DNA of 64,000 nucleotides from assembly GCA_009602735.1 (NCBI GenBank), contig WELA01000598.1:113321-177320 (forward strand), read 5' to 3'. Under the pieces are notes generated by a model that was not told where the DNA came from, did not search any database, and saw nothing but the letters and a program-made list of their open reading frames with translations. Made by a program: the position numbers and the translations under genes. Positions 1 through 40,986 of this stretch are shown one piece after another (within the stretch, counting starts at the first letter, position 1; the number at the start of each line of letters is the position of its first letter). This DNA is from Mesotaenium endlicherianum (taxonomy: Eukaryota).

Positions 1-206
1 CCACCACTCAATTTGGCCCTTTTCAATCAGAAGATCACTAGGTGCTTAGATTCCTCCCATACCAAGATGACACGTTTGTTCCGATGGAGGCCCTTAATTG
101 GACCAATGTTGTGACAGTAAGACGGAAGCCATTAGTAGCTATTCTGGTGCCTTGTGTGGATTCACTTCATGGCAGTAAATTCCAGCTTTCACATTGCTGT
201 TCACTG

Positions 207-233
207 CACCCTGAGAATGGGCAAGGGGCGAAA
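207..233 (+). repeat. left terminal inverted repeat of the CMC element
   Basis: caccctgagaatgggcaaggggcgaaa, preceded by TG. Confidence 0.92.
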
Positions 234-1005
234 CTCAAAATAGGGGTTCGTTTTTGGCAAGGGCTGGCGCGATTTTAACCAATTTGGAGGCTGGAAATGA
301 ATAACCACATGTCTTGCATCCCGCTGGAAAATAAGCCCAAGTTAGAACGGCTTGTTTTTCCATTGATCCTTAGGATTGTTTTCCTGCCCACTTAGTGACG
401 TTTGTGTACCCCTGTTGTTGGTTGTTAATTCCACCCTCAATCCTGGAATACAATACACCCCGTCTTCTCACTGTACACTTTTTCTTCTTAATTATGCACA
501 TTCTGTACACCAAAATAGTGGAGTTATTTCCTGCCTCTTGGGATGTGCGTTATTATTCTCCTCCAAGGTGTGCACTATCCTTCTCCTTTTTGACACATTT
601 CCCTTTGAAATTGTGGGAGGAATTTTTCTTCAAATGCTTACCATCAATTTAAGCCTCCAACACTCTCCAAATGCCAGTAACAAACTGCATAATTAATGTT
701 CAATGCGATTCATATTCACACAATAAAAAGTAATGTACATTTCCATTGTATCCACAACTCTACAACTACTACTCAACTACTGGTTACACTTCATTTCGAG
801 GATTGCTCTTACCAATAAAGCCAACAGGCTACCTACTTCAACTAAAAGGCAGCACACATGCCGAGGTGTCTAGATGTGGGACATAGGCCAGCGCTGTCAG
901 ACAAATATCACGCCACAACCTAGTCAAGGTGTCCTCTTACCTCACATCATGCATTCTAGAACTACAAGGCACATGACCCCTGACCACAAGCACCCAGAGG
1001 AACTA

Positions 1006-2692
1006 CTATCTCTTAGTCACTTCTTCTGTTGCTTCTGTACTGGAAGTGAGGGCGAGGCCCTTCCCAACGATGCTGAGAAACTTCCTCTGCTTCCTCGACC
1101 CCCCCTCAGCACTTTTCCCTTGCCTGCACACAACCATTTCATTATCAATGCTGCGCACTTGCACTGTGGTGGTATTCAACGTCACCACATACTGCCCTTC
1201 ATGTGCACGGCAAAGAAACTCATTATTACGATTCTGATGCAGTGGGTGTTACAGGTGTTTTTGGGTGAGTGCGTGCATGTGTCTGTATGCGATGCATAAC
1301 GGAGTATGTTTCGAAGCAACATTGTCATACATACACCCCCCACTCCGCCCACCATTAACCAGCAGCAAAGCAACAAAAGCATTCTGACCGGTGTGTGACA
1401 TGACGCCCAAGCCCTGCTGTGTATGCACATGCACGACGGCTTTCACATGCACCTTTAAGTTCACAATAAAGCAACTATGACAACGCAAAATCTCGAGGGT
1501 AAACACGTGCATTAAATAATAACCTGAACAGCTTGCACATACCTCTATTCATGGAGTACTTTGGAGACATTGGCTCATCATCTTTGTCGTCAGATCCAGA
1601 TGAAGCTCCCTTGTTGCTCTCTTCTGATGGCGCGGACTCACTACTTGAGTCGTTCTTCTTGTCATCGTTCTCGACAGGCGTGTGCTCTGCCGCTGCCACG
1701 TTGACTTTCTGCAACCTCAACCGTTTCCCAAGCCAAGTTAGAACTAATCTGCTTGCATTAGTCCCATTCAAGCAACACGTGCTACATATACTTTCTACCT
1801 TGCAACTTCCTCGCACCTACACTTGCAATGTGAGTCACTTAATTGCGCCTTTCATCCACATGACACTGTGTATTACAATGAACATATATGGCATATAGGC
1901 AATACTTCCACGCAGGTCTGCTCGTGCATGACTTATCTGAGCTTCACCAGGTACTTATGGCACACCATCACTTCATGCATGCACACGAACTCTTCTAAGC
2001 ACAACTGACCTTCTTCTTGCACTTCTCTAGCAGATAGAGCTTCACGCTCTCGTGGAAAGCTGTATGCTCAGGCTTGTAGTCTGCCACGTTGGGCCACCCT
2101 GCTTGCCACGGGTTGTGCTTCTTGAGCAGTGATTCCACAATCCACTCTGCAGACTGATATGTGAGGACACCGGCGGCCTCGTCTTCCCACTCCATCAACC
2201 CCTTTGCCAGCCCCCGCAACATGTGCTTGCTGAGCAGGCGAGTCATTTCTGACCTCAAATTCTTCCACTTCTTGTTCAGTCGCTGCAGCCACACACCCAC
2301 CATTGAACAGTATTAGGAAGCATGTTCTACCAGCCACTCATTGCAAGCAGATTAACTACAAACTCGTGAACAGTATAGGTGCACTGCAGTTGCTCTATCT
2401 ATCCGCATTACAATGTGCATTCGGATGTCCTTACCTTCAATAAATCAGCCAGAAGTGTCTTTCCAGGAGCGTAGAATGTTTTGTTGCGCCTGATGTAGAC
2501 CACCATGTTACTCGCCTTCGCTGTGGGCTTTGTGTAACCTCTGAGCACTTTCTCTGTTATAGGGTCCTGAAGGCGAAGCAGGACCTTGAGAACCATTTCT
2601 ACCTGCTTCATTGCTTGCACCTCATCTGTCATTAACCAAAAAGTGAGGTTGAACTTACGCAACGCGTTCCACACCTCCTTCACGGCTTTAAC
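1006..2692 (-). CDS. spliced accessory gene of unknown function inside the CMC element (first and last exons uncertain)
   Basis: Three phase-compatible GT-AG exons: 2692-2435 (VKAVKEVWNALRKF...LADLLK), 2282-2010 (RLNKKWKNLRSEM...LEKCKK) and 1708-1543 (acidic/Ser-rich). A probable last exon lies near 1191-1006, but its phase is unresolved. The KKWKNLR motif is reminiscent of a Myb/SANT-like helix (inference). Confidence 0.6.
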
Positions 2693-3590
2693 CTGCAACA
2701 TATCCTCAACATATCACTCCTCTCACAATTAAGTCATACATACCCCATGGGTACGTGTCACATTCACTTATGCATTCACCTAGTGCAGCAGAGAACACGC
2801 AGACAGCTGCAATACCCACACAGTTCAATAATCAGCATGTTATTTCTGCCTCATGTACTTTCTTTCATCGCCAACACAGTAGGCCATCTGCAGCAGACCC
2901 CATAACGAGCTGATATAGACACAGAGTATCCCCATTCAACACCTGCTAATATGCAGCATGCAGCTGCAGATTGCAGAATGAATCTTGTACTGCACTGCAC
3001 AGTTGTATATATACTGAAAAGTACTTTCACAGTTGAGCTTATTGCAATTACAGCTGATACGGCGAATGCAGAGACGCCATGGCTACAATTATTCTCACTA
3101 GCTACTAGCTGTTTGCTGTTTGATTCCTCAGAGAGATGCATATGAGAGCAGCCATATACGGCGTGAAGCTAAAGCTACTGCCCAATAGATCTCGTCCCTT
3201 TCAATGATCTAGCTCTGCTCACCTACTTTGGTCCATTATAATTCGTCGCACCTCGTAAATTCGACAACACACACGTGGTCGTTTTTTATACCGACGATGT
3301 AAGTTGTACTTCCATCTTGGATACTAACACGTACTCTTTTAATAGGCTTTCATTGCGGGTGAGGTAGGTAGACACATTTTCATCCACCTAAACTCGTCGA
3401 CTTACTGCACCACACAAATCCGCGACTTAGGTGAATATGCCAGGTACACTTCCAAACTCAATTTAGGTCTCCATTGGGTCCCCGAGGACTCTCCTGCTTC
3501 ATGCTCACTAGTTAAGTATATTCTTTCAACACACCTCTCTCAGAATCATATGTCGCGTTTGTATTTGTAGGCACGTCATAGGTAAACACA

Positions 3591-6588
3591 ATGTCCTCCT
3601 CTAGACTTGACAAGGTTTTGGAGGACTCCAAACGAGTATTTTTGCAACTCACTGTCCTACAAAATGAAGAACAGTCTCTACTAGGGCCGAAAAATGAAGC
3701 TTCTGCCAATGCTGTGCAAAAAATGCAAATGCAGCTCGACAAGGTTAGCTTGGAGAAGTCTTTCCTGCAAGAACAAATAGCAACATTAGAGGGTATAATT
3801 GCAGCACGTTGCAAGCACGACAGTAAGTACTGTGAAGAGAAACGACAAGAGTGGGTTAAGAAAAACCTTGCCCTGAAGGTGGAGAGGAACTCACTCGCCG
3901 AAAGAATGGCGCTCTTTAAGGCGCATAGAAGCCATATTGATTGCAATCAAACTTATTTCAACTGGCAAAATGTAGTTCCCAGGGAACTCACACATCAATT
4001 GCTATTGGAGGATTCACAAGGTGTTGAAGACAGGGAGAAGACAGCTGTGCTTCATTTGAGCTCCCCGAGCTGTCGGATCCAAGAACCACAACCACAGGCA
4101 CCAGAGGCAGGCATTCAAGACGCAATACACGTTGTCAAGCGCGCCCCCTCATCTCTCAATGTAAGCTGCTATACTCGCGTGTCATTGTATTACACCTTCT
4201 GCAGCCCCCCTTATCGTTAAGTGCATGTATGTTTCAGGAACCCCTCTTTGTTCTACAAGTTCCTTCTCCTACACACTACTTTTGAATTCATGACATATAC
4301 TATAGGAAGTATACATGCGGGGCCCCTTCTCCTCAATTGTGGGTGGTCCTGGATGATCCAATCCCGCCTACATATACTCTTTAAGCAATCTCCCTCTTCA
4401 TTTTCGCTTCCCCTAGCTGTCACCAACTGTGAGGTTAAATGGGGTCTATTTTTTGTCTCTTACCCTTTGCCTGCATCATGCTTGTGCATTGCCCTCACCT
4501 TCACCCCCCCCTTTTGCGTGTATTACTCACTCAGCCCCCAATCCGGCCCCTTATTCTTGCCTGTATCTGATGTTCTGCCTTTCTTTTTCGATTACTATCC
4601 ACTCACAGTACGCTCTCACCTGTGTGTGTCTCACTCTTTATGTCATGCTCCTTTGTCTAATTCTATTTACTATGCCCTTTGCCCTCGAGCCTGCGCTTTC
4701 TCTCATTGTCCTTCCTTTGCCATGCATATGTGCACCTCTGGCCTTACATTAGTGCCCACCCTCGCCTTCATCACCACTCACTGTGCCTTTCTTCCCTTCC
4801 ATTGCCCTTGCAAGTGCTTTATCTTGCCAGCTGTTTTCTTCTGTGCCTCTCCTGCTACTCTATCCGCTCATCCGCTCTTTTGGCTATATCGGATTACTTA
4901 GATGTTGTCATGATGCATTATGTATCCTAGCTGTGTCTGTGCCAGAACCCTTATTCCCCAATTTAGGCATACATATTCTCTTGCCTTTCTTTGTGCTGGT
5001 TTCCCCCTCTCCCTTCCTGTCCTCTCTTTTGCCTTGGCCCTCTACCTCTTTCCTGCATTTGGTGCTGTAGCTATCGATTATGCTTAGTGCTTGTTTGTTG
5101 CTCAATGTGAACTTGAGCTATATGTCACCCGACTTGCGGGACTTCCTCGACATACTCCTCTCTTGAATTGGTTTCTGACAGAGAGAGCTGGCGAGGGGAG
5201 CGTCCCCGGGGGACGATGAGGGGCCAACGAAACCCATTCGTCTCTTTCCTTATCAAGGCTCTCTCGTTGTACTTGTATGCACTTCCATGTGCCAGGAAGG
5301 GATACTCACTGCTGATGAGGTTCGTTTAACTTACCATCCTTTCATAGGATCCTTTTTTTGCACACCTTGTGTTAAAACTCTATCATGCATTTTTTTGTGG
5401 TTCAATTTGTGACATTCTTTCTCTGTTTTTCCAGCAGCAGGTAGCTCTTGTAAGGGAAAAAGGTGTTTCTGAAGACCCGCATGCTATCCGGGTTGATAAT
5501 TCAAGGGGCTCAACTGTTGGCTATGTGCCTCAAGAAGTGAGCAAGCATCTCTCCCCGCTCATTGACACCCCAGGTTGGGTAAGGATGTTCGGTACTGTTG
5601 CGAGATGGAGAGAAGGAGCACCTCAGGTACCATGGCCTTATGTTTTACTCTCCAGCCATGTCTCCCATGAATAGCATCTGCTTGCCGCATGCCATGGAAT
5701 GATTGCATGGTTGTCACTGTTTGAAATGCAATGATTGGGCGTGTGTTGGGCAGAGGGGTGGAGAGGGCGGGGCAACATACCTTGGGTCATAACCTACCTA
5801 TGTGCCTCATGCACTACCTGTTCCTTCTATGCATGCTAATGCAGGTCCCCTATTCTTGCATGGTTTGTTTTTGTGCATGTATGTGCTGTGCTGCAGCTTC
5901 GTTGCATATTCAACCTATACTTTTCCAGGCAATATGAATCATACATCAAAGGCAAACTTAAGCAAGGAAGTCTGGTCATGATTCATGTTGAGAGATTGAA
6001 GAACACGTCGGTCGAGGACGCCTACATGAGTGGTGTTTCGGAACCTTACAATGTGACATGCTCCCTTCAACAGCCACAGACACCACTTCCACAAGTGAAA
6101 CAAGCTGTTGACCGCGCTAAAAAGGTATGCATTATTGATTTATCAGATTGATTTACATGCTCTTTAGTTAGTTTATTTGCCACTAGCATCAGCTACTATG
6201 TTCATTAAGAATTACTGGTTGCCTACATGCATGCTCTGGAGTTGAGAGGGGCTCATTTTAGTTCTTGACTATGCGGCAGAATGTGTTTTTCACATGCTTT
6301 TCCTTTTTGTAATTACAATATATGACACTGCTCCTGACATATGCAGATTTCTTGCACACATGCTTGCAGAGGACGCACGGCGAAGATGCTCTTAGCAATG
6401 CCGGGCAAGAGGACTGCCCTCACCCGAGTGCAATGCCTTCTTGGGGACTTGACCAATTGGGACAAGGTAGGGGCAATGTCTTACGTCCGCTCAACTCAAA
6501 TGACGGTACTTCAGGCATATTAGAGCAGCCTGATGACAACAATGCTCTAGGCCGAAAGTTCTCGTGGAAGAGAATGTGTCAACATTAG
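3591..6588 (+). CDS. coiled-coil + HIRAN-domain protein (~448 aa) encoded inside the CMC element
   Basis: join(3591-4160,5182-5319,5435-5626,5897-6124,6370-6588). All introns are GT-AG and phase 0, giving an open frame. Exon 1 is heptad-like and rich in L/Q/E/K. Exons 2-4 give 'GILTADE-QQVALVREKGVSEDPHAIRVDNSRGSTVGYVPQEVSKHLSPLID', which matches the HIRAN pattern L-x-RE-x-x-N-x-x-D-x-x-AI-x-V...VGY[IV]P...LS-x-L-x-D of HLTF/Rad5. Confidence 0.8.
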
Positions 6589-7074
6589 GACATAGGTAGA
6601 CAAGTAACAGTGCTTAACATTTTTTAAAAGAAATCGTTTTATGATATTTTGTTCCACTTCAAAAATGGCATGTGTTCAAATTCAACAATGAAGAAGAATT
6701 GCCTCAAGAATATATGAAGAAGGAAATATTGGTGCCTTATCGGGTCATCTGTGACTGCATTTGATGCACCGTGGAGTGCCTAATACGATAACATGTTCAT
6801 AGTACACCTTGTGCCACAAGTAAACTACCCCAGCATTTAATATCCGTATGGAAAGTACACCTAGTCTACAAAGGTTTTGACAATCAAAACCCACACGACA
6901 TAATATGCAAAGAGAACCAACTTGTGTCTAATTTCTCTGGTAGTCGGAATTGTCACTTGAACTCGACACTTGCAGTCCAGCTGCCAGCCCAAGCATCCAA
7001 GAAAGATAAAGTTTTTTACAGCGATGACAGGGAGAGGGGAAGAGGGATAAAACAGATTGAGCGAGGAATTCACA

Positions 7075-7617: not shown

Positions 7618-7658
<41 letters not shown>
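7075..7658. repeat. (TA)n and (GA)n microsatellites flanking an assembly gap (N 7184-7617)
   Basis: TA run about 7075-7113; GA runs 7114-7183 and 7618-7658. Confidence 0.97.
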
Positions 7659-7665
<7 letters not shown>

Positions 7666-9543
7666 AGAGAGGGAGAGGGAGAGACATTTAGAGAGAGAGA
7701 GAGGAGAGAGGACGGGAATTGGGGCAGAGACGTACCGGTGCAGGAGGGTGCTGACGAGAGTTGCCCCCTTCAATAGGTATTTCCGCATAGCCAATCTCAG
7801 CGCAGAGGCCCGTCTGCCCCCCTTCCTCCAGCCGACATCCTGCATCACCATGTGAACAAAAGAGGGAGAGCAACAAAATACAAGGAGAGAGAGAGATCGA
7901 TAGTGAGCAAGAGAGATCAAAATAGTGAACAAATACAACAAGAAAGTGAGAGAGAGAGATAGAGAGGGTGTGTTAGTGATACACAGCGCGCTGACCAAAT
8001 ACGCCCACACCCCCTAGATATCACAGCTGCCGTCCGTCACTCACAAGGCGCACGCAACATTTGTGCATATCCTGTGACCACGAGCGCCTCGCTCGCGCGC
8101 GCTTTCACACTCGCTGCAGGCTCCGGGGGTCTAGGGTTTGGAGTCAGGGTTTTTGGGTCTGGGGCAGGGGTTTGGGGTGGGATTGAACTCAATATAGGTT
8201 CCTATTCTTGGCCTCTCTCGTTTCCTCATCCTTCAGTCCGCCGGCCACACCTAGTCGGCGGATAGGGAGGCAGAGGCGGAGGAGGAGGAGAGAGCCGACG
8301 TCGAGGGTTCAAAAATCTTGAACGAGGATTACAGCACCATGCAGAAGGCCATGGGCAACAACGGTGCGCCGCATTAAACCCAAAAATCCCCCAAACTCTA
8401 ATAAACAGCTCAAATCTTGATTAACTTCAAAGTTAAAAATACCATACACCCTAATCCGGAGCCAAGAGGCCAAACTCAAGCCCCATCTTGAGCGTAAAAA
8501 CCCTAATCTTGAAACTAGCACTCTGGCCCCTGGCCCTCATTTTTGGTCAGGTTCAGGCGGGAGCTCCAGACGTCGCCAAACTTGAAAAGGAAGAGAAAAG
8601 CAAAACACATATAAGAAAACAAACAAACAGACAAAGAAAAGTAAAGATTCCCAGCCGTCTCCTGGCTCTGGCTCCAGATTTGAGCGGCCGAGTGGACAAC
8701 GGGGATTCGGCAGTATTAAGAAAGCACGACAAGTGCCAAAGCACCAAGCAATGTGAACGGTCACATGCAGGCGGGTCCTTGTGGCCCTAGGCCCCCACGT
8801 CTAAACCCTAGGCCCTGGGGCTGGCCCCTAGGCCCCGGTCAGAGCCTTTGTGACCTGATCCCCCCTTCCCCCCTTCAAACTCTCCTCTTCCCCCTGGCGT
8901 GCCCCCCTTTTTCACTTCCCCTCCCTTAACTTGAAGAGAATTTAGGACTTTGGGTTTATATTTCTTATCCCCTCTCCCTCCCCAGGCGGGCCCTCTCCTC
9001 AACATCCCGGCCTCTTTCCCTCACCCAAGAAGAGCTACACACTAAACCTAGTCCTAACCCTAAGCCCCAGTTCCTCAAACCCTGTCCTGAAACCTCTGGC
9101 AGCAGACTCTGCGAACGAACGCTCTTCAGGGGGTATGTGCATCTATCTGTACGCACGGCCCTAAACCCTAAACCCAAAAGCTTCTCCCAAAGGATGCTTC
9201 GGGACCATCCACAGAACTACCAAGTGGGAGAAAGCAAAAACTTAATCGATCCACGGATGCGCTGTCAGCTCCTCCCCCCCCCCNTCTACATAAGGTTTGG
9301 GTTGAAGGCTTGGGTGAACACTCTAGAAAGAGCGCATCCTCTGCCATATCCCCCCCCCACGCTGAGTGCCTCCTCCCTCCCACTCGGGAAGCGCCCGGTC
9401 CGAGGGCAGAGGGCAGCTTGGAGCGACGGGGATGTAGAGCCGGCCAGCCGATTGTTGCGCGGCTGCTGACACCTGTCGCCGTGCACCGCACTGACTAAGT
9501 GCTCGCTTGCGTGTCTGCATGAGAAAGGGGGGGGGGGGGGGGG

Positions 9544-10498
9544 NNNNNNNNNNNNNNNNNNNNNNNNNNNNNNNNNNNNNNNNNNNNNNNNNNNNNNNNN
9601 NNNNNNNNNNNNNNNNNNNNNNNNNNNNNNNNNNNNNNNNNNNNNNNNNNNNNNNNNNNNNNNNNNNNNNNNNNNNNNNNNNNNNNNNNNNNNNNNNNNN
9701 NNNNNNNNNNNNNNNNNNNNNNNNNNNNNNNNNNNNNNNNNNNNNNNNNNNNNNNNNNNNNNNNNNNNNNNNNNNNNNNNNNNNNNNNNNNNNNNNNNNN
9801 NNNNNNNNNNNNNNNNNNNNNNNNNNNNNNNNNNNNNNNNNNNNNNNNNNNNNNNNNNNNNNNNNNNNNNNNNNNNNNNNNNNNNNNNNNNNNNNNNNNN
9901 NNNNNNNNNNNNNNNNNNNNNNNNNNNNNNNNNNNNNNNNNNNNNNNNNNNNNNNNNNNNNNNNNNNNNNNNNNNNNNNNNNNNNNNNNNNNNNNNNNNN
10001 NNNNNNNNNNNNNNNNNNNNNNNNNNNNNNNNNNNNNNNNNNNNNNNNNNNNNNNNNNNNNNNNNNNNNNNNNNNNNNNNNNNNNNNNNNNNNNNNNNNN
10101 NNNNNNNNNNNNNNNNNNNNNNNNNNNNNNNNNNNNNNNNNNNNNNNNNNNNNNNNNNNNNNNNNNNNNNNNNNNNNNNNNNNNNNNNNNNNNNNNNNNN
10201 NNNNNNNNNNNNNNNNNNNNNNNNNNNNNNNNNNNNNNNNNNNNNNNNNNNNNNNNNNNNNNNNNNNNNNNNNNNNNNNNNNNNNNNNNNNNNNNNNNNN
10301 NNNNNNNNNNNNNNNNNNNNNNNNNNNNNNNNNNNNNNNNNNNNNNNNNNNNNNNNNNNNNNNNNNNNNNNNNNNNNNNNNNNNNNNNNNNNNNNNNNNN
10401 NNNNNNNNNNNNNNNNNNNNNNNNNNNNNNNNNNNNNNNNNNNNNNNNNNNNNNNNNNNNNNNNNNNNNNNNNNNNNNNNNNNNNNNNNNNNNNNNNN
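9544..10498. other. assembly gap flanked by poly-G
   Basis: 955 N with G runs on both sides. Confidence 0.99.
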
Positions 10499-10589
10499 GG
10501 GGGGGAGGGGGGAGTGCAACGGTTGTGTATAGATGCGAAGCGGACATTGGCATAGTCGGGCTTTGTCCGACGTCGTGAGGGCATAAAGT

Positions 10590-12510
10590 GTGTGAACAAA
10601 AGAGGGAGAGCAACAAAGACAAGGAGAGAGAGAGATGGTGAGCGAGAGAGGGCAAAATAGTGAACAAATACAGCCAAAAAGAGGGAGAGAGAGAGAGAGA
10701 GGGTGTGTAGGAGTAGGGAAAGGCAAGCACTCAGTGGGCATACCTGCACACATAAGTTTCACGCCAGCTGCCCCCTCACGGACAGGCTCAGCTGAGATAA
10801 CCATATGCCACCCTCCCTCCAGCCGACATCCTGCATCACCGTATGGACAAGAGAGAGAGCAAATGAGAAACAAAGAGAGAGAGAACGTGAGCAGAAAGGG
10901 AGTGAAGAAAGGAAGAGAAGAACAGAAAGCTAACGAGAGCGAGCAAGAGAGAGAGAAGGATGAGAGAGAGAGGGGAATAGGGGCACGAGACGGGCGAGCA
11001 GACAGGAGGCATACCGGTGTAGGGAGGTGTTGACGCCAGCTGCCCCCTTCATATGGCCAATCTCAGTGCAGAGAAGCAACTGCCCCCCTTCCTCCAGCCG
11101 ACATTCTACATCACCACATTGACAAGAGAGATAGGGAGAGAGAGAAAGTTAGCAAGAGAGGGCCGTCGAGGGAGCAAAGTAGCAAAAAAGCGAGCTTGAG
11201 AGGGAGAGGGGGAGGGTGAGAGAGAGAGAGAGAGAGGAGAATATGGATGGGGACAGGCAAGCACTCAGGGGTCATACCAGCACAGATAGGTGTTCACGCC
11301 AGCTGCACCCTTCAAAATCTTTTTGCGCATGGACAACCTCAGCAAAGAGAACCATCTGCCACCCTCCCACCGGCAACATCCTGCATCACCTAATGGGAAA
11401 AAGAGAGAGCAAGCAGGATAGTAGGAGAGGAAGAAAGTGATCGAGAGTGGGAGAGCAAAAGAGACCTAAACAGAGCAAGCGGGAGTAAGAGAGACACCCA
11501 AAGAGTGAGGGAGGGTTTATAGGGGCAGGGACGGGCACGAAATGTGGAGACACACCAGTGCAGGGAGGGGTTGACACCAGATGACCCCTCTGCGAGCTTT
11601 TCGCGCATGAACAGGCTTAGTGCAGAGATGCATCTGCCACACTCCCTCCAGCCAACAGCGCGCTTCTCTTTATGGACAGAGGTGAGGTGGCGAGAAAGAT
11701 AAGAAGAGAGAGAAAAAGTGGACAGTGGGAGAGAAAAGGAGCTAGCAGAGAGAGCGAGCGAGAGTGACAGACAGGAAGACAAAGAGAGGGAAATAGGGGC
11801 AGTGATGGGAGAGCAGTCATGAGACACACCGTTGCAAGGAGGTGTTGACGCCAGCTGCCCCCTTTGATAGGCTTTTTCGCATGACCAGTCTTTGCTCAGA
11901 GAACCATCTCCCCCCCTTCCTCTAACCGACATCCTGCGTCAACTTATGGACAAAAGAGAGAGCAAGAGAGATTGGAAGAGAGAAAGAGAGAGAGACAGTG
12001 AGCAAATGGGGGCAGAAGAGGGAGCAAAGTAGCAAACAAGCGAGGGAGAGAGGAGAGAGGGAAAGAGAGTGAGGGGAAAAGGGGTGGGGACAGGGAAGCA
12101 CTCAGGAGGCATACCGGCGCAGATAGGTGTTCACGCCACCTCCACCCTTCAAATGCTTTTTGCGCATGGACAAGCTCAGGAAAGATAATCACCTGCCACC
12201 CTAACTCCACCCAAATTCGTGCGTCACCTTATGGAGTATAAGCAAGGTGGATAGTAAGAGAGAGAAAGTGAACGAGAATGGAAGAGCAAAACAGAGTGCA
12301 AAACAGAGCGAGCAAGAGTAAGAGAGACACCCAAAGAGTGAAAGAGGGTAATTGGGGAAGGGACAGGCAAAAGCCGAGGAGACACACCAGTGCAAGGAGG
12401 TGCTGACACCAGCTGGCCCCTCTGCGAGCTTATTGCACATGGATAGGCTCAATGAAGAGAACCATCTGCCACCCTCCCTCCAGCGGACATACCCCATCAC
12501 CATATGCCTA
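10590..12510. repeat. degenerate tandem array of ~275-280-bp units (about 7 copies, plus a further copy at ~7620-7980)
   Basis: The core 'catctgccaccctccctccagccgacatcctgcatcacc' recurs near 7812, 10802, 11078, 11352, 11631, 11905, 12191 and 12462, separated by GA-rich spacers. Confidence 0.88.
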
Positions 12511-12802
12511 CAAGAGAATATGTGCTTAATTTTGCATGATTGCATAGTTGAAAACAGAGGACCACATGGCACCCATAGACCAGAAAGCGCTCCAGAAAAA
12601 GTGGTGCAAAACAGGAGGACATGAAAGGCGGGGAGGGCTACAGGTTGAGTGGGGGTAGGATGTAGAATACATACCTGCCTTAGGACGCGGATAGTTGAAG
12701 CTTGAGGCATCACAAAGAGGTTACACATAACAAGGCCTTTTAAGGCCCCACTATGTCCAGCATGCTGAGATCTCTAACGCAGTCACGTCTAGGTGCACCT
12801 GG

Positions 12803-15800
12803 CTAAAAGTGGTTCAGCAGGAAGTGGTCATTTGTGTCCTCTTCATGAGTATGTTCTAGTTCCCCCTCTTTCAGACATTCACCCTCCTGGCAGTGGCTGT
12901 TATCTACACGGGTTTTGTGCTTGCACATCCTATGCACCCCGCACAATAGTGAGTCCCGCTCCCACTCTGTGTAAAGGTCTCTCCTGTTAAGCTTAGATCT
13001 ATCCAATACGTAAATAGGAATGGGATTCTCCCTCCAACAGTAGTGCTCCACCTGAATTGTGGAGATAACAACACTCATGGGTACAATTACCTCAGGACCG
13101 CCATAGCTTAAGACAGGATGGAGCGTGTCAGGGTCAAACTTTGGGATGTTCCTCCTCCCAATCACTCGCTTGAATGATCTCACCTTCGCCCACACATATG
13201 TAGACCCACTAGTGAGCTCGTGAGCAAACAACCCTGTGAGTGTGCCTATCCATACATCACCACCCTGCCGTGCCGTACCAATACCATGTAGACTACAGGC
13301 TACAGAAACATGGTCTCCAACCTTGAATGAACCATGCACATCTCCCTTCTGAGCTTGAGTGCACTCAAACGCCCAAGGGCGAACTCTATCCAATGGAAGC
13401 TTCATCCAAGGGCCCCTTGATGCAAAGAAGATGGTATTGTACAAGGTGTGTAAGGACTCCTTAGTCACTCCAAGATCATTCAAAGGTTTCCTACTCGCCA
13501 ACTTCTTGCTGCCTGTCCACCTGGTAATAAGAAAGAAACAATGACAAGTCACGGGTCAGTATACAGGGTGCAGAACCACGCTGCAGGCACCACCCACTTA
13601 CTCCAACTCTTTGCAAACACAAAGAAATAGCAAGAAATGAACAGTGGTACTGTGTATCATCCAAAATGAATGACAATTATAATGAGCAAGGTTGCTAATG
13701 CACAGTACTTATGTGTATACGCAATAGTACAGCAAATGCAGAAGAGCATAGCACCTGGAAACTTAAGACAGCATGCAGCTAACAATGATATTGATAACAA
13801 GCACCCAGAAGTATAATGTACACGAAGTATACTTCCTTGCTATGGCGCCGTAGGCCGTCTGATTCAACCTGTCCAGCTTGCACTGGTACAGCTCCTTCAC
13901 TTGTCCCTCGTCCTTAACCACCCACACAGTGGGTTCCAGGGGGGCTCCCTCAACAGCTGCCACCTTCTTCATGGTTTCACATCTTCTCACCATATCTACT
14001 AAGTCATCATCCATGCCTAACGCTCTTGTGAGCGCATAATCTGTCCCAGTCAGTATGTCTATCACGTTTGCTCTACCCACAGATTTCCTCAACAACCAAG
14101 GAGTAACAGGTTTGCAGTGCTTATTATTAAGCGATTGCATGTCTTCCTTCACATATTTATGCCGCCCCTCAAACTCTTGTGTCCACAGATGCTTCAAAGG
14201 ACCAAATATCCGCATGAAATATCCCAAATGCAGCAGAGCATGCAAGTTGTGGTTAGCAGCATATAGTTTCCCCAATCTACGCACTAGTGCATCGGGCTCT
14301 GGGGGCCAAGCTTGTACGAAGGACCGATGAAACTCAACAGCTAGCCGTTCTACCTCTTGTATATCATGCTCACTGGTATTAGATGCGAGTACTAATAAGA
14401 CTATCTGATTAAGCAAAGTCCATAGTTGCAGTGCTTCAGCCCTATCTGTGAAGGCCTGCGTATCATACCTGTAGTTGACCCTCTGGTGCCCAACTCTCAT
14501 CGATGGATCACACCATGGGCGTAACAAAAGAGGCATCACGGAGAGGAGACTAAGGAACATCATCCCCGGGTAGTTGGCATAATGAGTCATGGGGTCCTTA
14601 AGTTTATCTCTACCAGCTGGAACGTTCATGTTCACAGCAGCAATATTAAAAGCTTCTACCTCGTGGGGGTTCCAGCTGCACTTTTCAAACGTGTAGTGAC
14701 ATAGCTTCTTAATGAGGCCTAAGCATATAAGGTGAAATACATTAGGACCCATTTGTAGAAACCTATCAAAGTCTGGGAGAGCTTCAAGCGGGTTGGGTAT
14801 GCCATTGTGACCTTTTCCCTCCCAACCAGCCGCTAACGCTTCCCTGTCCTTGTCAATCAGCCCCTCTACTGCCCTATTAAAAGCTCTGGCACGCTCCTCG
14901 GTCCTCATCTCCCACCCTTGTGGTAACTCTGGTACAAGCAAGCCCTGCCTTCTAATATAGCAGCAAGGACAAGGGTAATTACTGTTGAGTCCTGTCAAAT
15001 GCAGACTCTTCATTCGCTGTGGTGAGTCCTGACTAAATGAAGGCTTCACCCTCACCAAACACTCTCCCTTCAAAGGAGCGAAATACATGTAAACTCCTCT
15101 GTGTAGACTTTCCAGATCACCTACAACTATATGCTGCATAACTTCATCTGATATGGCTTCATCATCTCCAAAGCCTATGACGCGTATGGTCTTTGTGTCA
15201 CGTATGACATCACTATGAAGGTTCTGTATGCGATAGTAATATCCACAAACACTCTTCCTTTTCCTTCTGTACACTCCAAAGTCATCTGCAAAGATACTAA
15301 TAGCCAAGTTTACTACAGGAAGGTTTCGAGGATTTTGGCCTTCCAGGACTTCCTCACGTGGAGCATCAAAGGCCCCAGCAGACAGACTGACAGGTAGTTG
15401 GAGTCCACTCTGTAGCTCCTAACTGCACCAGAACGTAAGAACCCCTTCAACGTTATACCCCTTGTCTAGGTGCGGACGTCTAGCTATTTTGTCAGTCACG
15501 ACATTGCAGACACCAATAACACAGCCTACGGCAACATCCCTGCACTCCTAAGTGAGGATGAGCTCACCATGATGTCTCTGGCCTTGAGCAGCTTTTGGGT
15601 ATTGCATTATTTGCACCTGAAGGTAAGGGTCGGGCATCTTTCCACGGCTGTCTGACCACAGGATGCCTCGCAAAATAGCAACCTCCTTTGTAACACCCAT
15701 GCCTGCGCAATGACGGTGAACAAAGAGGGGGCCGCAAGATGTGCAAAAACAAGTAAATAAGAGAGTGAGAAAGTGTTGGCAGGGAGGAAAAGAAAGAGCT

Positions 15801-17461
15801 AAAGGGGGCTGGAGAAAGTGCAGTGGCTAGAGCCCAAAACAAAAGTGCTAAGAAATGAGAAATCATGTAAAAGACAGGCAAAACAACACACGCAGATGTG
15901 AATATGGCAAATGCAGCAGGGAGAAGAGCATGGGCGCATAAATAGACCAACACATTACAGTAGGAGAAAGCAAACAAAAGGGGCGGAAGGAGACAAGGAA
16001 GGAAGAAGCATAGTAACAATCTTAAAAACGAGTGCATGCGACACAACAAAAAGGAAAAAATAATAGCAGGCGGATTGAAAAACGTAACAGGCGACATATG
16101 CCAAAAAAAGAGTTGGCCAACAGAGGAACAGGTACAAGTAGGCAGAGCCGACACAAGACAGATTGGAGAACCAACAAGGAGCATGAGAGAACGCTTTGAA
16201 GGAGGGAAAAAAAAAGGATCAAAGACATAAGACGTGAGGTGGCAGGGATTGATGAGGAGGAGCTCACCAGCAAGAAAAAGGAAGTCCCCCAGCTTAACAG
16301 AGATGCTCTCTCCATTCACCATTATGACACAGTTGTAGTCCATAAAGAAGGGGTCTTGGGTGACAAACCGAGAATTGTATATCCCAGTCACTTTGCCCCC
16401 TACTTTGAGCTCTGCCTTCCAGTGCAAGTCCATGCAAAATGTTTCATTTTGCAGATTCACCTGTAAGCTATGTGGAATACTCCGAGCAAATAATTGAGCC
16501 TTACTCGCCGGGAGGTTTGTTGTTGTGACACCTAAGAGTTGTATGACACTCCGTAACTTTGTGTGAACATCAGGATGACAATTTTTCCGGTGTTCATAGT
16601 CATACAAGCCACTATGAAATTTGATATTATGCCTAAACCACTTAGAGGTCTTGGTCCCATTGCCATGTAGCTCCTCTAAGGCATACTCACACAAGGTGGT
16701 AAGGTTCCCAAACATTCCAAACGAAGTGGAATCAGCACATAGGAGAAAAGACTTAATCTCTTTTGATGTCCACTGCTTTACAGAAGGTGCATGATCCCCA
16801 TCAAACCCATTACCTTCAACTCCATGACCCGCACTATTAGGCACACCCTGTGCATTGAGTGCCAGTGCCGCATCTGTACCACGTACTCCAACCACTTCTA
16901 CAATAAGAGGTTGTGAAAGAATTTGTCTCTCGTCCGTGTGCTCCTCACTGGCAACTACAACAGTTGCAGGTAATCGTGGGCTACCTGCAGGTGTCTGCGT
17001 GGGAGGAGATACATGATCCATGTCGTCACCCAAATCATCGCCTACATCAAACAGTTTGAAAAGTCAGAGATGAGTACATTTGCTGGTGAGTACCCCATGT
17101 TTTGTATTGACAGTTTAGCTATCAATCGCAACTCTCGGCATTCAATCACCTTGTAGCATGTTTTGTGACCACTTCATGGGCACAATGGAGTGCATGCAAT
17201 TAGATACGGGGCCTGTAAGGAACTCAGAGGTGGCAATACAGTACCTGCAGTGGGATCATCGAAGTCCATTGCCTGACGTACACGGTCACGGCCTGTTACC
17301 TCTCCTTCTTGCAGGGCCGTTGTCGTCCGCAACAGACTCTCATTTTGTGGTGAAGTAAAAGAGGGCCTTGCCCACACAGGTTTGCACTGATGCCTGTACA
17401 GAGTTCTGTGTACATACATATTTTCACAGTGAACACACTTAAACCTCTGAGGAGGAACCAT
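12803..17461 (-). pseudogene. CMC/EnSpm-type DDE transposase (~1192 codons, 4 exons) with two in-frame TAG stops
   Basis: join(17461-17245,17041-16268,15702-13833,13520-12803) is phase-consistent (3579 nt). Motifs: IFADDF (D), QDSPQ (D), CPCC, FHLICLG, NLHALLH and QEFEGRH (E), i.e. the CMC signature C(2)C / H / H(3-4)H. There is an N-terminal CxxC-x10-H-x-C finger. In-frame TAGs lie at 15548-15550 and 15419-15421. Confidence 0.85.
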
Positions 17462-18060: not shown

Positions 18061-18087
18061 TTTTGCCCCTTGCCCATTCTCAGGGTG
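18061..18087 (-). repeat. right terminal inverted repeat of the CMC element
   Basis: ttttgccccttgcccattctcagggtg, followed by TG. Confidence 0.92.
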
Positions 18088-19789
18088 TGGAGCGTCGACA
18101 ATCCGGTGCATATATGTCAGGAAGCTTCTCGATCGTCATGCATTTGCAGTAAGATTGATCGATGTGTCATCGATTGAGCCGAATAATTTTTCGAAGGGTC
18201 AAACGCTTCGATCGGCAGGTGTGGTTGGGAGCAGCTTGGAAGTTTGGCGCAGAGCGAGGTAAGACATGTCATAGTAACAGTACAAGCGGAGCTCAATCCT
18301 TGATGCCCAAGGCAGACTTCGCGATGTGAGTTTAGCGCTTTTAGACCGCTAGGCTCCCAGTACCGTTGAAGTTATGCTTAAATTAGCGAGAACCGGCAAC
18401 TTCATCGCGACAGCTAGACGGTTGAACTATGATTTGAGCGTGAAGACTTTGACAAATTTTGCAACATTAAAATCGCCAAGGTATTTTCAAATTCATTCCA
18501 ATCATTTATCGCGAACATTCGGAAATATAAAGTTGGTCCAAGGGATGGAATTATAATCAGATGGAATGATGTGAAGTTTCGGCCTCTGTCGGTTGGGGTC
18601 GATCCGGGCTTATCTCTTTGTTCACATGGTAAAATATGGAGTTGACAGTACATCTGGTCTACAGCTTTGTCAGCCTTTGCATATGTTAGGCCTTGATTGA
18701 TAGCAGGCACACTGAGCATGCAAGGACTTGTGTCTTGTGTATATACAAGATTTGAGACCATTTTGGGGAATTGGAAGGAAACGACTTCTTTCAAAATTGT
18801 ATTCTTAGTGCATCATAGGTGTCGCCAGCCCCTTTTTACATGCCATCTATGGACCTAGAAGAAGAACTGTGGTGATCATTGGAGTAATGGGCAGTTGTGA
18901 GGGAGCGATAGCTACAGCTAGGGAAAAAACAAGGAAGAAAGATGGACCTGAACGAGTCTCCTCCTCTATAGCTGATATTGTCCCACCACCTGCCCCTGCT
19001 CCTTTCTCCCCTTCAGCTTTTGCCCTTGCCCCTTTGCCCTCCCCCCTCCTTCTGTCACCCTCTCCTCAGTTCCCTCCGCCTCGACCCATCTCCTTACTTC
19101 CAAAAGTGAAAAGCAGACTTGTGTTTAGAGTTCTCATGACAATTTCTACTGCACGTGCAAACTGCAGACTACAGATGCTGCCACGTACTTCCGGTAGAGC
19201 AAACAAAAGTCAATGGATGTCCTTGGGAGCATCATCTGAGGCTGTCAGCGCCCCCCCCTTGAGAATGTGCAGGCTATCCCCACGCCAAAGCGTCCTCAAT
19301 CCTGGTCTACAAACCCCTCTTCAGGACCATTTTGCCATACATATAGCCTTTTGTTCACGTACTTCATACAGTTCTTTGTCGCTTCACAGACACATGTGCT
19401 ATCACTTAGAGGAACTTTTCAACATTGCCTGTAGGGAATCAGTGCATCCCTAGGGTTTTACCATGTGACCCCTCATTGTCGGATTCTTGCGTATTGCAGA
19501 TGTATGTGAAAGCGAGGAAGGAAAGCACTTGTGGAGCTCTGTGGGGGGGTTCTTCCTTGATATTGGATGCACGTGTCAGTCAGCCATCGGTCCTCATGGG
19601 AGAACAGCACAGCAGTCTTAGCAGTGGAGTTCTCGCTCCTCCTCCAAGACACCTGGTACTGCTATTTTCCTCACTGGCAATCGCGTGTGAGCCTCACTTG
19701 CAGCAGCGGAGGGACTTTGCATTTTGAATACTCGATACCGGATTCATTTTCTTGACACTTGAAATGCTTGTGTGACATGCTGTTCTACT

Positions 19790-21722
19790 GAGAATTGACG
19801 ACGTGAAAGGGTGCTGGTGGGGGGCTTTTGACGCGGTTGGGTGCAGGCGGGGAGGGAAAACCCTCGGGGAAGGGGTGTGTGAGGGCCAGAAGGTCAGCTC
19901 CTGCTAGGGCCCAGCATCACGAGCAGTAGTAGGATGCGCGCTCCTCTTCTCTTTTGTCGCTGGGAGGTGAGTAGCTTCCGCAACCGTCCCAAATCCACAC
20001 AGAGTCCTGCCCTAGACCCCAACTCGGAACTTACAGTGGCGCCTGCTTGGGGGCGCGTCCCTCCCCAGGTGAAGGGGGCTTTCCTGGTTGGCATCGGGTT
20101 CGGCGCTTTTCTTTGCAAGGCACTTCACAGTCTGTCGGGGGGTCTTTGTAACACCTCCACCTCTTCCCCCTCTTAACTGCAAGGGGACGGCGTGGTGCCA
20201 GCTGGCAGCACCTGAGACGTCGCCCGGGGATTTGGCCCACCCTCACCACGAGGGCCCCGGTGGGGGCCTTAGAGGAGCACTGCGAGCGTGACTTATGACG
20301 GCTTTGGTGCTCTCAGGGCGAAATGAGGAGCAGGGGGGAGAATGTATGGGTGCGGGTGTGCGTGCTCGTCTACGAGCACCTGCAGATGGATCTGCGCTTC
20401 TACAGGCAGGTGTGAAGGGATGGGGGTTGGCGTTCCAACTTCCAGCTGCAGCTGGAGATAGGCTCTCAAGGGCAAGCTGCTCTGCTGTGGGGGGACGACA
20501 GCTCACAAGCCTTGTGCGCCGGGACAACGGGCGATGGTGCTGACATAGGGTGGAGGGGAAGCACCTGCAAGGTTCCTCTTTGTTATGAATGGTGGCTGTC
20601 TTTGAGTACGCCGATGATGCTGCGTGGGTCGGGCAACGGGTGAGACAGCTTCTCCCTCGACGTGCACGCTTGGGTGTTGCCTTTTCGCAGTTGGTGCAGT
20701 AGTCTGTAGATGGACCCAAGGGGGAAGAGCTTCCACGCAGGGAGTGCGATCGCGGGGCCACATCAAGTCCTAAACCGTGACCCCGCCTGCTGGTCCTGGT
20801 GTGCTGGCACCTGCCTTGCGCGTCCCCCTGCCACCCACTCACTCGGTCATCTCGGGTGCACAGCTGGTCCGGCATTTCCCACCGTGCTGCGCTTTGCGCG
20901 CAACCTGACATCACGTGCGGTCGCATGCTCACTCGTGCTCATTGAGACACAAGCATTAGGCAGAGGTGGTGTGAACAGGGCCCTGGCTTGCTTGCCATTG
21001 CCCTGGCTGGTGGGGTTGCCAGATGCACATGATCAATTCCCCCCCGCCCCTCCTCTGCGCTACCTCTCCAGTCCCTCCCTTTGATAAATCATGTCTGCCC
21101 TCTCCATATTTTTGCCTTTGTCCTACATGCTCTGGAGTCTGCTACCATGTGAGTATTGAGTGCCTTCATGTGAAAGGATACCGCCTTGTCTTTTATCCTT
21201 GGGGGAATGCTGCTGGCTAATGAATAAGTTCCCATTTTGCAGCAGTGCCAGGTGTCGGGCAGAAGCCCGACTTTCATCTCCATGTGCTCCAGGCCCCCCG
21301 TTGACCAGCCCGTTCTGTACGCTTCTGCGCCTGCGAGGAACCAACACGATGCTTTCTGTTCGTGCTGCTTTCCCCCTCACACACACCTGCCCCCTCTATT
21401 TCCCAACTTCCTCAGCACTCTCATTGCCGCTGTGGTGGTGCCAGCTGGCGGTCACGTGCAGCTGACGAGAGCATGGTGGTTCCGTCCATGTTGCCATTGC
21501 CGCGTCACGCCCACCTGCAGATGGCGACAGCTGCTGTCCTGATGACAGAGTGTGGGGGCAAAGCACAGTGTGAGCAATGATTGGCTCAACGTCCAGACAC
21601 CTGGCGCCGCTGTGAGCTGGATCTCTGCTAGCTGTGGGAAATGGGGAAATGCTCTTGACACCTGTCACCACGGAAGGCCTCGTCCACAGCCACAAGGCGC
21701 TCGCGTGTGCTTGCGTTGGTGT
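19790..21722 (+). repeat. ~1.9-kb degenerate segment, inverted copy of 43020-44790, with receptor-like-kinase-like fragments
   Basis: Long collinear similarity, e.g. 'ctcaacgtccagacacctggcgccgctgt' at ~21586 vs the reverse complement at ~43120-43150. Broken-frame fragments read CVLVYEHL and DVARG(L)AHL. Confidence 0.75.
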
Positions 21723-26984: not shown

Positions 26985-27039
26985 GATGCGCGTGAAACCT
27001 GCAATAACGAAGGGAATAAATAAAGCAGTAAGAAAATAG

Positions 27040-39618: not shown

Positions 39619-40986
39619 ATGGATCCCACATTGAAGTTACCAGATAATATTCTGGTGCGCATCCTGCGCGGAGCATCATCAGCAAGAAGTGGTGATGTCC
39701 GATGCGTATGCCAAAGGTGGAGGCGGCTCATAGTTGGCACTTACAAGCGTGCATATCTAGTAGGCGTGACGGGGGGTGCGGAGGCCACCTTCAACACCCT
39801 TCAGGCATGCCAAAAGGTGACCCATGTTAGCGTCACAACTTACTTTGGACTTTCAAAAGTCAGGGAGTTGTGTGGGCTTCTGAGAAGGCTTGCTACGGAG
39901 GAAAAGTTGCCTCATCTGACTTCCTTCTATTTAGAGGTCGATGGAAAGGACATGTTTGACCAGCTCCCTTACTTCTTATTCAAGAGGTCCAGCCTTCAGG
40001 CGCTAGAGCTTTCCTTCTCCTGCAAGGGAAGCGATTTCAAGAACTGGAGGGCATTGCACTCTTATCTGGAGGGTCTGGACTTTGGATACCTCCATAACTT
40101 GCAGCATTTGACGCTTGACTACGAGTGGATAAGAATGGCCTTCCCCAGCACCTGCTACGTCCCCGTAAGCAGGGCACTTGCCAATCATGAGCGGCTTCCA
40201 AAACTTGAGACTATTCATCTGCGACTCCCTGACTTCTTCCAGGTGCAGAAGCTGCCTCCGTGGCTGGGTGAGCTGCAGGCCTTCTCCAGTTTAAAGACGC
40301 AGGCTCGTGATAGCCTCGGCTCAAGTTTTCAGCTTATTTTCTCTTTGGCAGCCATGAGCTGCCTACAGAAGCTTGAGATTACCATCCGGAACGGTTGCTT
40401 TGAGGAGGAACTCTCTGGCTTAAACCAGCTGGCCCCGTTGGCAAAGATGCACTCGCTGAAGGAGTTGATCCTGCACTTCTACCATGTTCCTGTGCCGGAG
40501 TGTGCACTTACCTTTTTCCGATTGGAAAAGCTTGACCTCAAAGTATCTGCTATTTTTCCCGGGTTTTAGATGCCTAGGCGTTTCTTCTCATGCATGCCCA
40601 CTCTGCGCTCCTTGGAGCTCAAGGCTGCAGACTCACTGCCCTGGCCTGTGCTTGCCCCGCTCAAGCAGCTCACGTATCTGAAAATAGCACCGGAGCGGGA
40701 TCCAGAAGCTCATAGCAAGTCTTTCTGCGACATGGGTGACCTGCCGGCTCTGCGGCATCTGGAAATCCGTGGATGCCAGGTGCTGCAAAGAGTTGATGGC
40801 CTGTTCAATCTGGCCAGTGCAACAGCTGTCACCCTTCATTGCCGCTGCCGGGACAGGCCTTACGACATCAGGGTTTACGCAGAGTACGTGAAGGTGGCAT
40901 CAAATGTGAGGGCGGGATGCCGGAGCCTAAGGCGCGACTTGGCTAGGCTGCTCTTCCAGGACAGCAGGGCCAGGGCGCATCAGTGA
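39619..40986 (+). pseudogene. F-box/LRR-like gene, paralog 2, with a premature TAG
   Basis: MDPTLKLPDNILVRIL...VCQRWRRL. ORFs 39604-40569 and 40570-40986 are in the same frame. The TAG at 40567-40569 aligns with Q in paralog 1 (SASQIPPDF vs PGF*MPRRF). Confidence 0.85.

What the first reader, a model, noticed from the sequence alone, without database searches (positions are those of the whole stretch)
3591..6588. Transposon-borne stand-alone HIRAN-domain gene, intact while the transposase is broken
Seen: five phase-0 exons give an open 448-aa frame of coiled coil + HIRAN + low-complexity tail, located between the TIRs. Known: HIRAN in HLTF/Rad5 binds free 3'-OH DNA ends at stalled replication forks and is normally fused to a SNF2 helicase/RING. 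Inference: the protein could bind transposon 3' ends, couple transposition to replication forks or steer repair of the excision gap. It may be a true element gene rather than a captured fragment, since no helicase remnants follow it.
Basis: partly seen in the sequence, partly recalled or inferred. Interest (0 to 1): 0.82.

Follow-up and report, generated by a model that had tools for sequence, protein, structure and literature searches.

The report
Algal transposon carrying HIRAN helper gene
A family of cut-and-paste jumping genes in a freshwater green alga carries its own spliced, conserved gene for a HIRAN domain, a module otherwise known from DNA-repair enzymes, which likely helps the element by gripping branched or single-stranded DNA; this particular copy is probably decaying in all three of its genes.

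Summary
The gene is real. It lies inside a 17.9-kb EnSpm/CACTA-type DNA transposon (27-nt inverted ends, 2-bp duplication) of a zygnematophyte alga, head-to-head with a second accessory gene. Exon 3 passes Pfam's HIRAN cut-off, no helicase or RING follows, and one contig from a public run of unrecorded kind shows the exon 3-4 splice exactly.

It is not a one-off capture. Diverged genomic copies match at exons and drop out inside intron 2; 24 of 38 listed variable sites are third codon positions (pN/pS about 0.27).

Two corrections. (1) 'Intact while the transposase is broken' is weak: two stops missing this gene is expected by chance (P about 0.6). Sister contigs also point to an intron-2 donor 24 nt further on that this copy lacks, so the 448-aa form omits HIRAN's first-loop motif. 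(2) The HLTF 3'-OH pocket is only partly kept, so end-specific binding is doubtful; Rad5-like binding of single-stranded or junction DNA is likelier.

No paper on HIRAN in transposons was found. This scan earlier noted HIRAN-like passengers in algal mariner/pogo elements on other DNA (unchecked). Verdict: new variant of a known kind; function untested.

The parts
205..206 (.). Left copy of the 2-bp target-site duplication (TG)
   Evidence: sequence; a 2-bp match has a 1 in 16 chance alone
207..233 (+). Left terminal inverted repeat, begins CACCC
   Evidence: 27 nt, 96%; shuffle control; three other contigs cover the left end region
1006..3141 (-). Second accessory gene (ORF2), modelled as 7 exons (3141-3061, 2942-2859, 2692-2435, 2282-2010, 1936-1839, 1748-1543, 1196-1006), about 396 codons, one possible TGA at 2867-2865; first two exons uncertain; no family assigned
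   Evidence: model; conserved blocks in other copies match exons; no clear Pfam, PDB or fold match
3142..3590 (.). About 450-bp head-to-head spacer between ORF2 and the HIRAN gene; probable shared promoter (inferred)
   Evidence: gene models
3591..4160 (+). HIRAN gene exon 1: start codon, predicted coiled coil (about aa 1-120), Pro/Gln-rich linker
   Evidence: one 226-nt contig of run X5 lies in it with 0 differences
5182..5319 (+).
   Evidence: summed depth of other copies up to 576 against 56 in intron 2
5320..5343 (+). Probable true 3' end of exon 2 in the family (8 codons carrying the Tyr-His pair that aligns with HLTF Y72/Y73); the donor that follows is AT in this copy and GTAAGT in two sister contigs
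   Evidence: loose ends; alignments
5435..5626 (+). HIRAN gene exon 3: HIRAN core
   Evidence: Pfam 44.3 bits; 20 synonymous and 16 non-synonymous rows of 36
5897..6124 (+). HIRAN gene exon 4: last HIRAN strand and helix, plus a further conserved stretch
   Evidence: junction 5626-5897 in run X6; hhalign; in-frame loose ends
6370..6588 (+). HIRAN gene exon 5: low-complexity tail with a basic patch, stop TAG
   Evidence: acceptor not tested by RNA
7618..12520 (+). Internal repeats: array of about 275-bp units at 10.6-12.5 kb, one more unit near 7.7-8.0 kb, with unrelated sequence and an assembly gap between
12803..17461 (-). EnSpm/CACTA-type DDE transposase, 4 exons (17461-17245, 17041-16268, 15702-13833, 13520-12803), 1,192 codons, N-terminal Cys/His motif, two premature TAG (15550-15548, 15421-15419)
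   Evidence: motifs; ESM Atlas nearest clusters Transposase_21 0.94 and Plavaka 0.92; no Pfam hit
18061..18087 (-). Right terminal inverted repeat
18088..18089 (.). Right copy of the target-site duplication (TG)

Best explanation
The HIRAN gene is a spliced, multi-copy accessory gene under purifying selection in an EnSpm/CACTA-type transposon family, and its protein likely acts as a non-catalytic helper that is predicted to oligomerise through its coiled coil and to grip single-stranded or junction DNA through a HIRAN barrel with a partly lost 3'-end pocket. Such a helper would hold the broken donor site or freshly replicated DNA during cut-and-paste and so would favour repair from the sister chromatid, which raises copy number. 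Shown: element anatomy, HIRAN match, copies, selection, one splice junction. Inferred: the family's longer exon 2, the splice lesion in this copy, DNA binding. Untested: any role in transposition. Odds: about 0.85 for 'selected family accessory gene'; about 0.35 for this particular job. This copy is probably a decaying member (two stops in the transposase, one possible stop in ORF2, one probable lost donor in the HIRAN gene) that still seems to be weakly transcribed.
For: Pfam HIRAN above cut-off. Profile alignment 99% over 89 columns, or 107 with the longer exon 2. In runs X1 and X3, 20 contigs each lay on 5200-5640, 14 of them under 99% alike; summed depth is 56-62 inside intron 2 (this copy alone) against up to 576 in exon 2 and 861 in exon 3. 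Of the 40 listed rows (10 not shown), 24 of 38 sites are third positions (binomial p 1.6e-4); exon 3 pN/pS 0.27, with 20 of 36 rows synonymous against 8 and 7 in the two wrong frames; no indel row. 7 of 8 exon loose ends of diverged copies read in frame without a stop. Same order in other copies: one contig links the left end to ORF2; joints of one depth (68.5) link ORF2 to HIRAN-gene exon 1; others link exons 2-3 and 3-4. Spliced contig with 0 differences in X6. Nearest HIRAN proteins are only 34-54% identical over 35-62 residues. Rad5 HIRAN keeps 2 of 10 HLTF contact residues yet binds ssDNA and overhangs (PMC7804152, passages). Accessory genes are known in related elements (bioRxiv 10.1101/2025.02.11.637652, passages).
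Against: Two assembly gaps lie inside the element. Summed contig depth is not a copy number (tool note), and X1-X4 may be the source sample. pN/pS is a crude per-row count on contigs selected for at least 80% identity. One loose end is offset by a base, a possible frameshift in one copy. The spliced contig is single, depth 2.7, from a run of unrecorded kind. For the donor: the upstream site matches 6 of 8 consensus letters and depth halves at 5320 (564 to 264), so some copies may end exon 2 there; the longer form also leaves a 5-7 residue gap in the alignment. The HIRAN region is not strongly basic, and nothing tests DNA binding.
Confidence: 0.55

Rival explanations
1. One reading: the protein is an HLTF-type clamp for free 3'-OH ends (transposon ends or the excision gap).
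For: D94 position kept in this copy and only a synonymous change listed there. The longer exon 2 supplies Tyr-His at the Y72/Y73 positions. Five contigs have Arg at the K113 position (the contact role of K113 is recalled). D94 reads the 3'-OH and Y72/Y93 pinch the bases in HLTF (PMC5773155, passages).
Against: N90, N91 and Y93 positions are Gly, Val and Glu here; the NN90,91AA double change was the one that fully impaired HLTF HIRAN (PMC4666394, section read). This loop varies among copies and D94 is Asn in the more diverged ones seen. The 448-aa form lacks the Y72 stretch altogether.
Confidence: 0.18
2. The HIRAN barrel works mainly as a protein-contact or decoy module, for example docking on PCNA or competing with host Rad5/HLTF, or partnering ORF2 to bind the element's own repeats against silencing.
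For: The fold core is conserved while the DNA pocket varies. Rad5 HIRAN also binds PCNA (PMC7804152, abstract and passages). Head-to-head pairing with ORF2 and an internal repeat array.
Against: A regular-expression scan found no PIP-box-like word in the 448-aa model (pattern recalled). No interaction data.
Confidence: 0.14
3. An old captured piece of a host RAD5B/HLTF, FAN1 or TDP1 gene, amplified passively, with no use to the element.
For: The helix after the last strand resembles eukaryotic HIRAN domains. The host's own HIRAN genes could not be compared directly, as no genome is held.
Against: Third-position excess and pN/pS 0.27 among copies; exon-confined conservation; no close protein among 1.84 billion representatives or in a collection that holds this alga's annotated proteins (one search is weak, 7 candidates).
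Confidence: 0.08
4. The left part (ORF2 and HIRAN gene) and the right part (transposase) belong to different elements or are wrongly scaffolded.
For: Two N gaps between them; no other contig seen spanning both.
Against: 26 of 27 match between the ends, matching TG flanks, the same repeat unit on both sides of the second gap. The left part is in any case tied to an end of this family in another contig.
Confidence: 0.05

Closest known systems
Giant Plavaka (EnSpm/CMC) transposons of red algae with accessory genes PAG1-3 (bioRxiv 10.1101/2025.02.11.637652; passages)
   Same: Large algal CMC-type element with a DDE transposase, several conserved accessory genes and internal tandem repeats.
   Different: The accessory genes there are an unknown protein, a methylase/SET protein and a ParB/2OG-oxygenase; 'HIRAN' has 0 occurrences in the main text (supplements not seen). 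Ends here begin CACCC.
TET/JBP-carrying EnSpm, ESTA and Plavaka elements of fungi; CMCT clade (PMC12730594; passages and section 3.1.6)
   Same: [quoted passage not shown]
   Different: The passenger there is an enzyme acting on methylcytosine; here it is a non-catalytic HIRAN protein plus an unknown helical protein.
HLTF / Rad5 HIRAN domain (PF08797; PDB 2mzn, 4xzf, 5bnh; PMC5773155, PMC4666394, PMC7804152)
   Same: Same domain: best PDB sequence matches are HLTF HIRAN (E 0.08-0.12 from the 64-aa exon); D94 position kept.
   Different: No SNF2 helicase or RING; N-terminal coiled coil instead; N90/N91/Y93 loop not kept, more like the pocket-poor Rad5 type.
Stand-alone bacterial and phage HIRAN proteins (mentioned in PMC4666394 and PMC3417536, passages)
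   Same: Helicase-free HIRAN associated with mobile DNA; several top hits are short or tandem HIRAN proteins.
   Different: Here a five-exon eukaryotic gene; no tblastn match in 50,697 phage records at E 0.01.
Maize En/Spm TnpA (recalled, no call)
   Same: Non-catalytic DNA-binding helper beside a CACTA transposase.
   Different: TnpA binds subterminal sequence motifs and shares a transcript with TnpD; this gene is on the opposite strand and has an unrelated domain.

Membership tests
CMCT clade (EnSpm/CACTA and relatives) | 5'-CA..TG-3' termini with inverted repeats | tested here: met
   CACCC..GGGTG, 27 nt; definition PMC12730594
CMCT clade (EnSpm/CACTA and relatives) | 2-5 bp target-site duplication | tested here: met
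   TG on both sides; one insertion only, 1 in 16 by chance
CMCT clade (EnSpm/CACTA and relatives) | [quoted passage not shown] | tested here: met
   candidate acidic motifs at model aa 468 and 555, CxxC 575, HxxxH 818, E motif 841; the choice of catalytic residues is by motif order; ESM Atlas
EnSpm proper versus Plavaka | Placement in a transposase tree or Pfam family | tested here: inconclusive
   no Pfam hit; Atlas scores 0.94 (Transposase_21) and 0.92 (Plavaka) are close; no homologues retrieved for a tree
Plavaka (fungal A and B lineages) | Termini TGT..ACA or CATCA..TGATG | tested here: not met
   ends are CACCC..GGGTG; definition PMC12730594
HIRAN domain (PF08797) | Profile score above curated cut-off | tested here: met
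   44.3 bits against 24.7
HIRAN domain (PF08797) | Complete six-stranded barrel | tested here: inconclusive
   hhalign covers 107 columns with the longer exon 2 and 89 with the shorter, low confidence at both ends; the spliced domain was not folded
HLTF-type 3'-end-binding HIRAN | Pocket of Y72, N90, N91, Y93, D94 | tested here: not met
   D94 kept; Y72 kept only in the longer exon 2; N90, N91, Y93 replaced
HLTF-type 3'-end-binding HIRAN | Preference for free 3'-OH ssDNA | not testable with these tools
   needs a binding assay
HLTF/Rad5 helicases | SNF2 ATPase and RING after HIRAN | tested here: not met
   tblastn of two HIRAN-SNF2 proteins against the window hits only the HIRAN exon below E 5; Pfam
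Transduplicated host fragment (Pack-CACTA type) | Near-identity to a host gene | tested here: inconclusive
   no close protein, but no genome is held
Transduplicated host fragment (Pack-CACTA type) | Neutral decay of the captured frame across copies | tested here: not met
   24 of 38 sites at third position; pN/pS 0.27

The most novel reading that the evidence does not exclude
Unrelated cut-and-paste transposons have repeatedly recruited HIRAN domains as their own DNA-end or fork handlers, so that the element, not only the host, decides how the excision gap is repaired; this EnSpm-type family would be the first CMC example.
Probability: 0.3. Interest if true: 0.8.

Novelty: new variant of a known kind. 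Interest (0 to 1): 0.56.

Why it matters
Cut-and-paste transposons gain copies only if transposition is tied to replication or to repair of the excision gap, and element-encoded factors for that step are little known (own knowledge). The accessory genes described for related elements in the papers read act mostly on DNA or chromatin marks. A selected, element-borne HIRAN protein is a concrete candidate for a repair- or fork-directed helper, testable with a binding assay and a transposition reporter. It also adds a natural pocket-altered HIRAN for structure-function comparison.

Tried and rejected
No own genome held, so no direct tblastn for copies or host HIRAN genes. Word-index protein searches: HIRAN exon, 7 candidates, none at E 0.001; transposase, none of 7,993. 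Related loci of the transposase: 0 confirmed of 50 stretches in metagenome contigs; 1 confirmed stretch but 0 loci returned in viral contigs. No phage match. No RNA holder listed. Raw RNA runs X7 and X10 (about 6% and 13% read, stretch 100-7060) and X13 (about 24%, stretch 5200-5640) laid 0 reads, with no control stretch, so this is no test. Single-sequence folds were poor: transposase pLDDT 32.7 (not searched); ORF2 exon pLDDT 58.7 with no Foldseek match at E 0.001 and best VIA Z 7.0 to unrelated helical bundles. A BEN-domain guess for ORF2, prompted by a scan note, found no support and is not excluded. 4 of the 20 hits (P0004, P0005, P0007, P0012) have no HIRAN by Pfam and were left out of alignments. 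An early reading that put the first-loop motif at the 'VCTSMC' stretch of exon 2 was dropped. A TAG-recoding genetic code was considered and not pursued: a neighbouring host gene matches mosses, ferns and Closterium under the standard code. No tree was built: too few and too short HIRAN sequences. Paper searches: 'HIRAN domain'+'transposase' 9 papers, none on a eukaryotic transposon by title or start of abstract, one opened; HIRAN+Repbase 0; HIRAN+mariner 1, irrelevant; HIRAN+CACTA 0; Mesotaenium+EnSpm 0; two searches were swamped by unrelated matches. Repbase and most subscription papers are not searched.

Full report
Setting. The window is eukaryotic. A host gene at 49.5-51.2 kb matches at 100% over 190 residues a protein labelled 'jgi/Mesen1', with mosses, ferns and Closterium at about 77-82%. 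Reading that label as the zygnematophyte alga Mesotaenium endlicherianum is from memory. No whole genome was held, so copies were studied through contigs of public runs.

The element. A 27-nt inverted pair at 207-233 and 18061-18087 (26 of 27 match) begins CACCC and is flanked by TG on both sides; 0 of 50 shuffles produced any 20-nt inverted match. On the minus strand a four-exon, 1,192-codon transposase carries an N-terminal Cys/His motif, acidic motifs, CxxC and HxxxH in the order that defines the CMCT clade (definition in PMC12730594, section read). The ESM Atlas places it next to Transposase_21 (0.94) and Plavaka (0.92) clusters; Pfam gives no hit. It has two in-frame TAG codons in exon 3. 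A second accessory gene, ORF2, lies head-to-head with the HIRAN gene; its model has seven exons and one possible TGA in an uncertain early exon, and no family could be assigned. Two assembly gaps lie inside the element; the matching ends and a 275-bp repeat unit on both sides of the second gap argue for one element but do not prove it.

The HIRAN gene: what holds. The five exons give 448 codons. Exon 3 scores 44.3 bits on Pfam HIRAN and its five best PDB matches are HLTF HIRAN. Two HIRAN-SNF2 proteins match nothing else in the window below E 5. One 253-nt contig of run X6 matches 5445-5626 with no difference and continues with 71 letters whose first 30 are window 5897-5926: the predicted exon 3-4 junction, not listed in the DNA runs laid with it. 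A 226-nt contig of X5 lies in exon 1 with no difference. Both runs are of unrecorded kind and the depths are 2.7 and 4.7, so this shows probable low-level transcription of this copy, no more. Three raw RNA runs laid nothing and lacked a control.

It is a family gene. In X1 and X3, 20 contigs each lie on 5200-5640, 14 of them under 99% alike. Summed depth is 56-62 in the middle of intron 2 (this copy only), up to 576 at the end of exon 2 and 861 in exon 3. The tool warns that this is no copy number; six distinct contigs carry one variant at 5500, so 'at least several, perhaps about ten' is fair. Of 40 listed variant rows (10 more not shown), 24 of 38 sites are third codon positions (p 1.6e-4); in exon 3, 20 of 36 rows are synonymous, against 8 and 7 in the wrong frames, giving a crude pN/pS of 0.27. 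One row read alone would be a stop, but the depths suggest it travels with its two neighbours as an Asn codon (inference). Seven of eight exon loose ends from more diverged copies read in frame without stops; one is offset by a base (these eight are the exon-located strings among the rows shown, and 62 and 11 further rows were hidden). Other contigs link the left end to ORF2, ORF2 to exon 1 (inferred from three joints of identical depth), exon 2 to 3 and exon 3 to 4. No contig of another copy was tested for a link to the transposase. The nearest HIRAN proteins among 1.84 billion representatives are 34-54% identical over 35-62 residues (16 of 20 hits have HIRAN) and are a mix of bacterial-like, tandem-HIRAN and HLTF-like proteins, so the donor is unresolved.

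What does not hold. First, the contrast. The gene is 1,347 of 6,117 modelled coding bases, so two or three random stops miss it with P 0.61 or 0.47. Second, 'intact'. Two contigs per run follow the window to 5343, in phase 0, and continue with GTAAGT; this copy has ATAGGA. The 24 nt before it encode a Tyr-His pair that aligns with the YY/YH/FH motif of other HIRANs and lengthens the profile match from 89 to 107 columns. A C precedes the site, so a CpG-to-CpA change would explain the loss (inference). I put about 75% on this copy having lost the family donor; it would then make the 448-aa form without that motif, skip exon 2, or stop at 266 aa. Against this: the upstream donor is a fair one (6 of 8), depth halves at 5320, and the longer form still has a short gap in the alignment.

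Mechanism. In HLTF, D94 reads the 3'-OH and Y72 and Y93 pinch the last bases (PMC5773155, passages), and the N90/N91 double change abolishes function (PMC4666394, section read). Mapping through, this protein keeps D94, keeps Y72 only in the longer exon, and has Gly, Val and Glu at 90, 91 and 93; this loop varies among copies, and the diverged copies seen have Asn at 94. The barrel core is what selection keeps. Yeast Rad5 HIRAN keeps only 2 of 10 contact residues and binds ssDNA and overhangs without 3'-OH preference, and also PCNA (PMC7804152, passages). The likeliest job is therefore a coiled-coil-linked, non-catalytic binder of single-stranded or junction DNA that helps the element at the excision gap or behind the fork (about 0.35), ahead of a strict 3'-end clamp and a protein-contact or decoy role. 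All of these are inference.

Comparison and novelty. Accessory genes in algal and fungal CMC elements are known: PAG1-3 in red algae (bioRxiv 10.1101/2025.02.11.637652, passages; supplements not seen) and TET/JBP in fungi (PMC12730594); Plavaka-like elements are reported in a zygnematophyte (PMC13519894, passages). The domain word HIRAN does not occur in the main text of the first two, and in the third the passages shown were the surname Hirano. Searches for HIRAN with transposase, Repbase, mariner and CACTA found no report, within a library that lacks Repbase and most subscription papers. HIRAN has been linked to phage replication modules (PMC3417536, passage). Earlier notes of this scan describe HIRAN-like passengers of mariner and pogo elements in other algae; I did not test them and do not count them as support.

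Verdict. New variant of a known kind, interest 0.56.

Noticed in passing
window 1006-3141 (-): Second accessory gene of the element, mostly helical, with an acidic Ser-rich stretch and a short beta-rich last exon; conserved exon blocks in other copies; no family found.
   Followed up: partly
window 7973-9543: Sequence that interrupts the 275-bp repeat array, with a few plant-telomere-like words near 9160; possibly a nested insertion.
   Followed up: no
window 24621-27041 (-): hAT transposase in two frames (DUF659 and hAT dimerisation domain), broken near 25275.
   Followed up: partly
window 35079-36410 (-), 39562-40566 (+), 46748-48271 (+): Three long-exon F-box/LRR-like reading frames, apparently paralogues (Pfam weak hits for one).
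   Followed up: partly
window 27165-30019: Long degenerate tandem repeat with strong A skew.
   Followed up: no
window 19789-21721 and 43020-44788: Two inverted, about 77-83% similar copies of another repeat.
   Followed up: no
window 49485-51248 (-): Single-frame PP2A activator (PTPA) gene with a long Gly/Ala-rich insertion; used to place the organism.
   Followed up: yes
window 61319-63998 (-): Part of a family A DNA polymerase gene, probably polymerase theta or nu.
   Followed up: partly
window 5471-5586, record 7: A sister subfamily about 82% alike has a contig depth four to five times that of this copy, suggesting several near-identical, younger insertions.
   Followed up: no
P0001 and P0006: Two helicase-free tandem-HIRAN proteins, each from a 9,664-nt contig (possibly the same one), rank among the best hits; their context was not available.
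   Followed up: no
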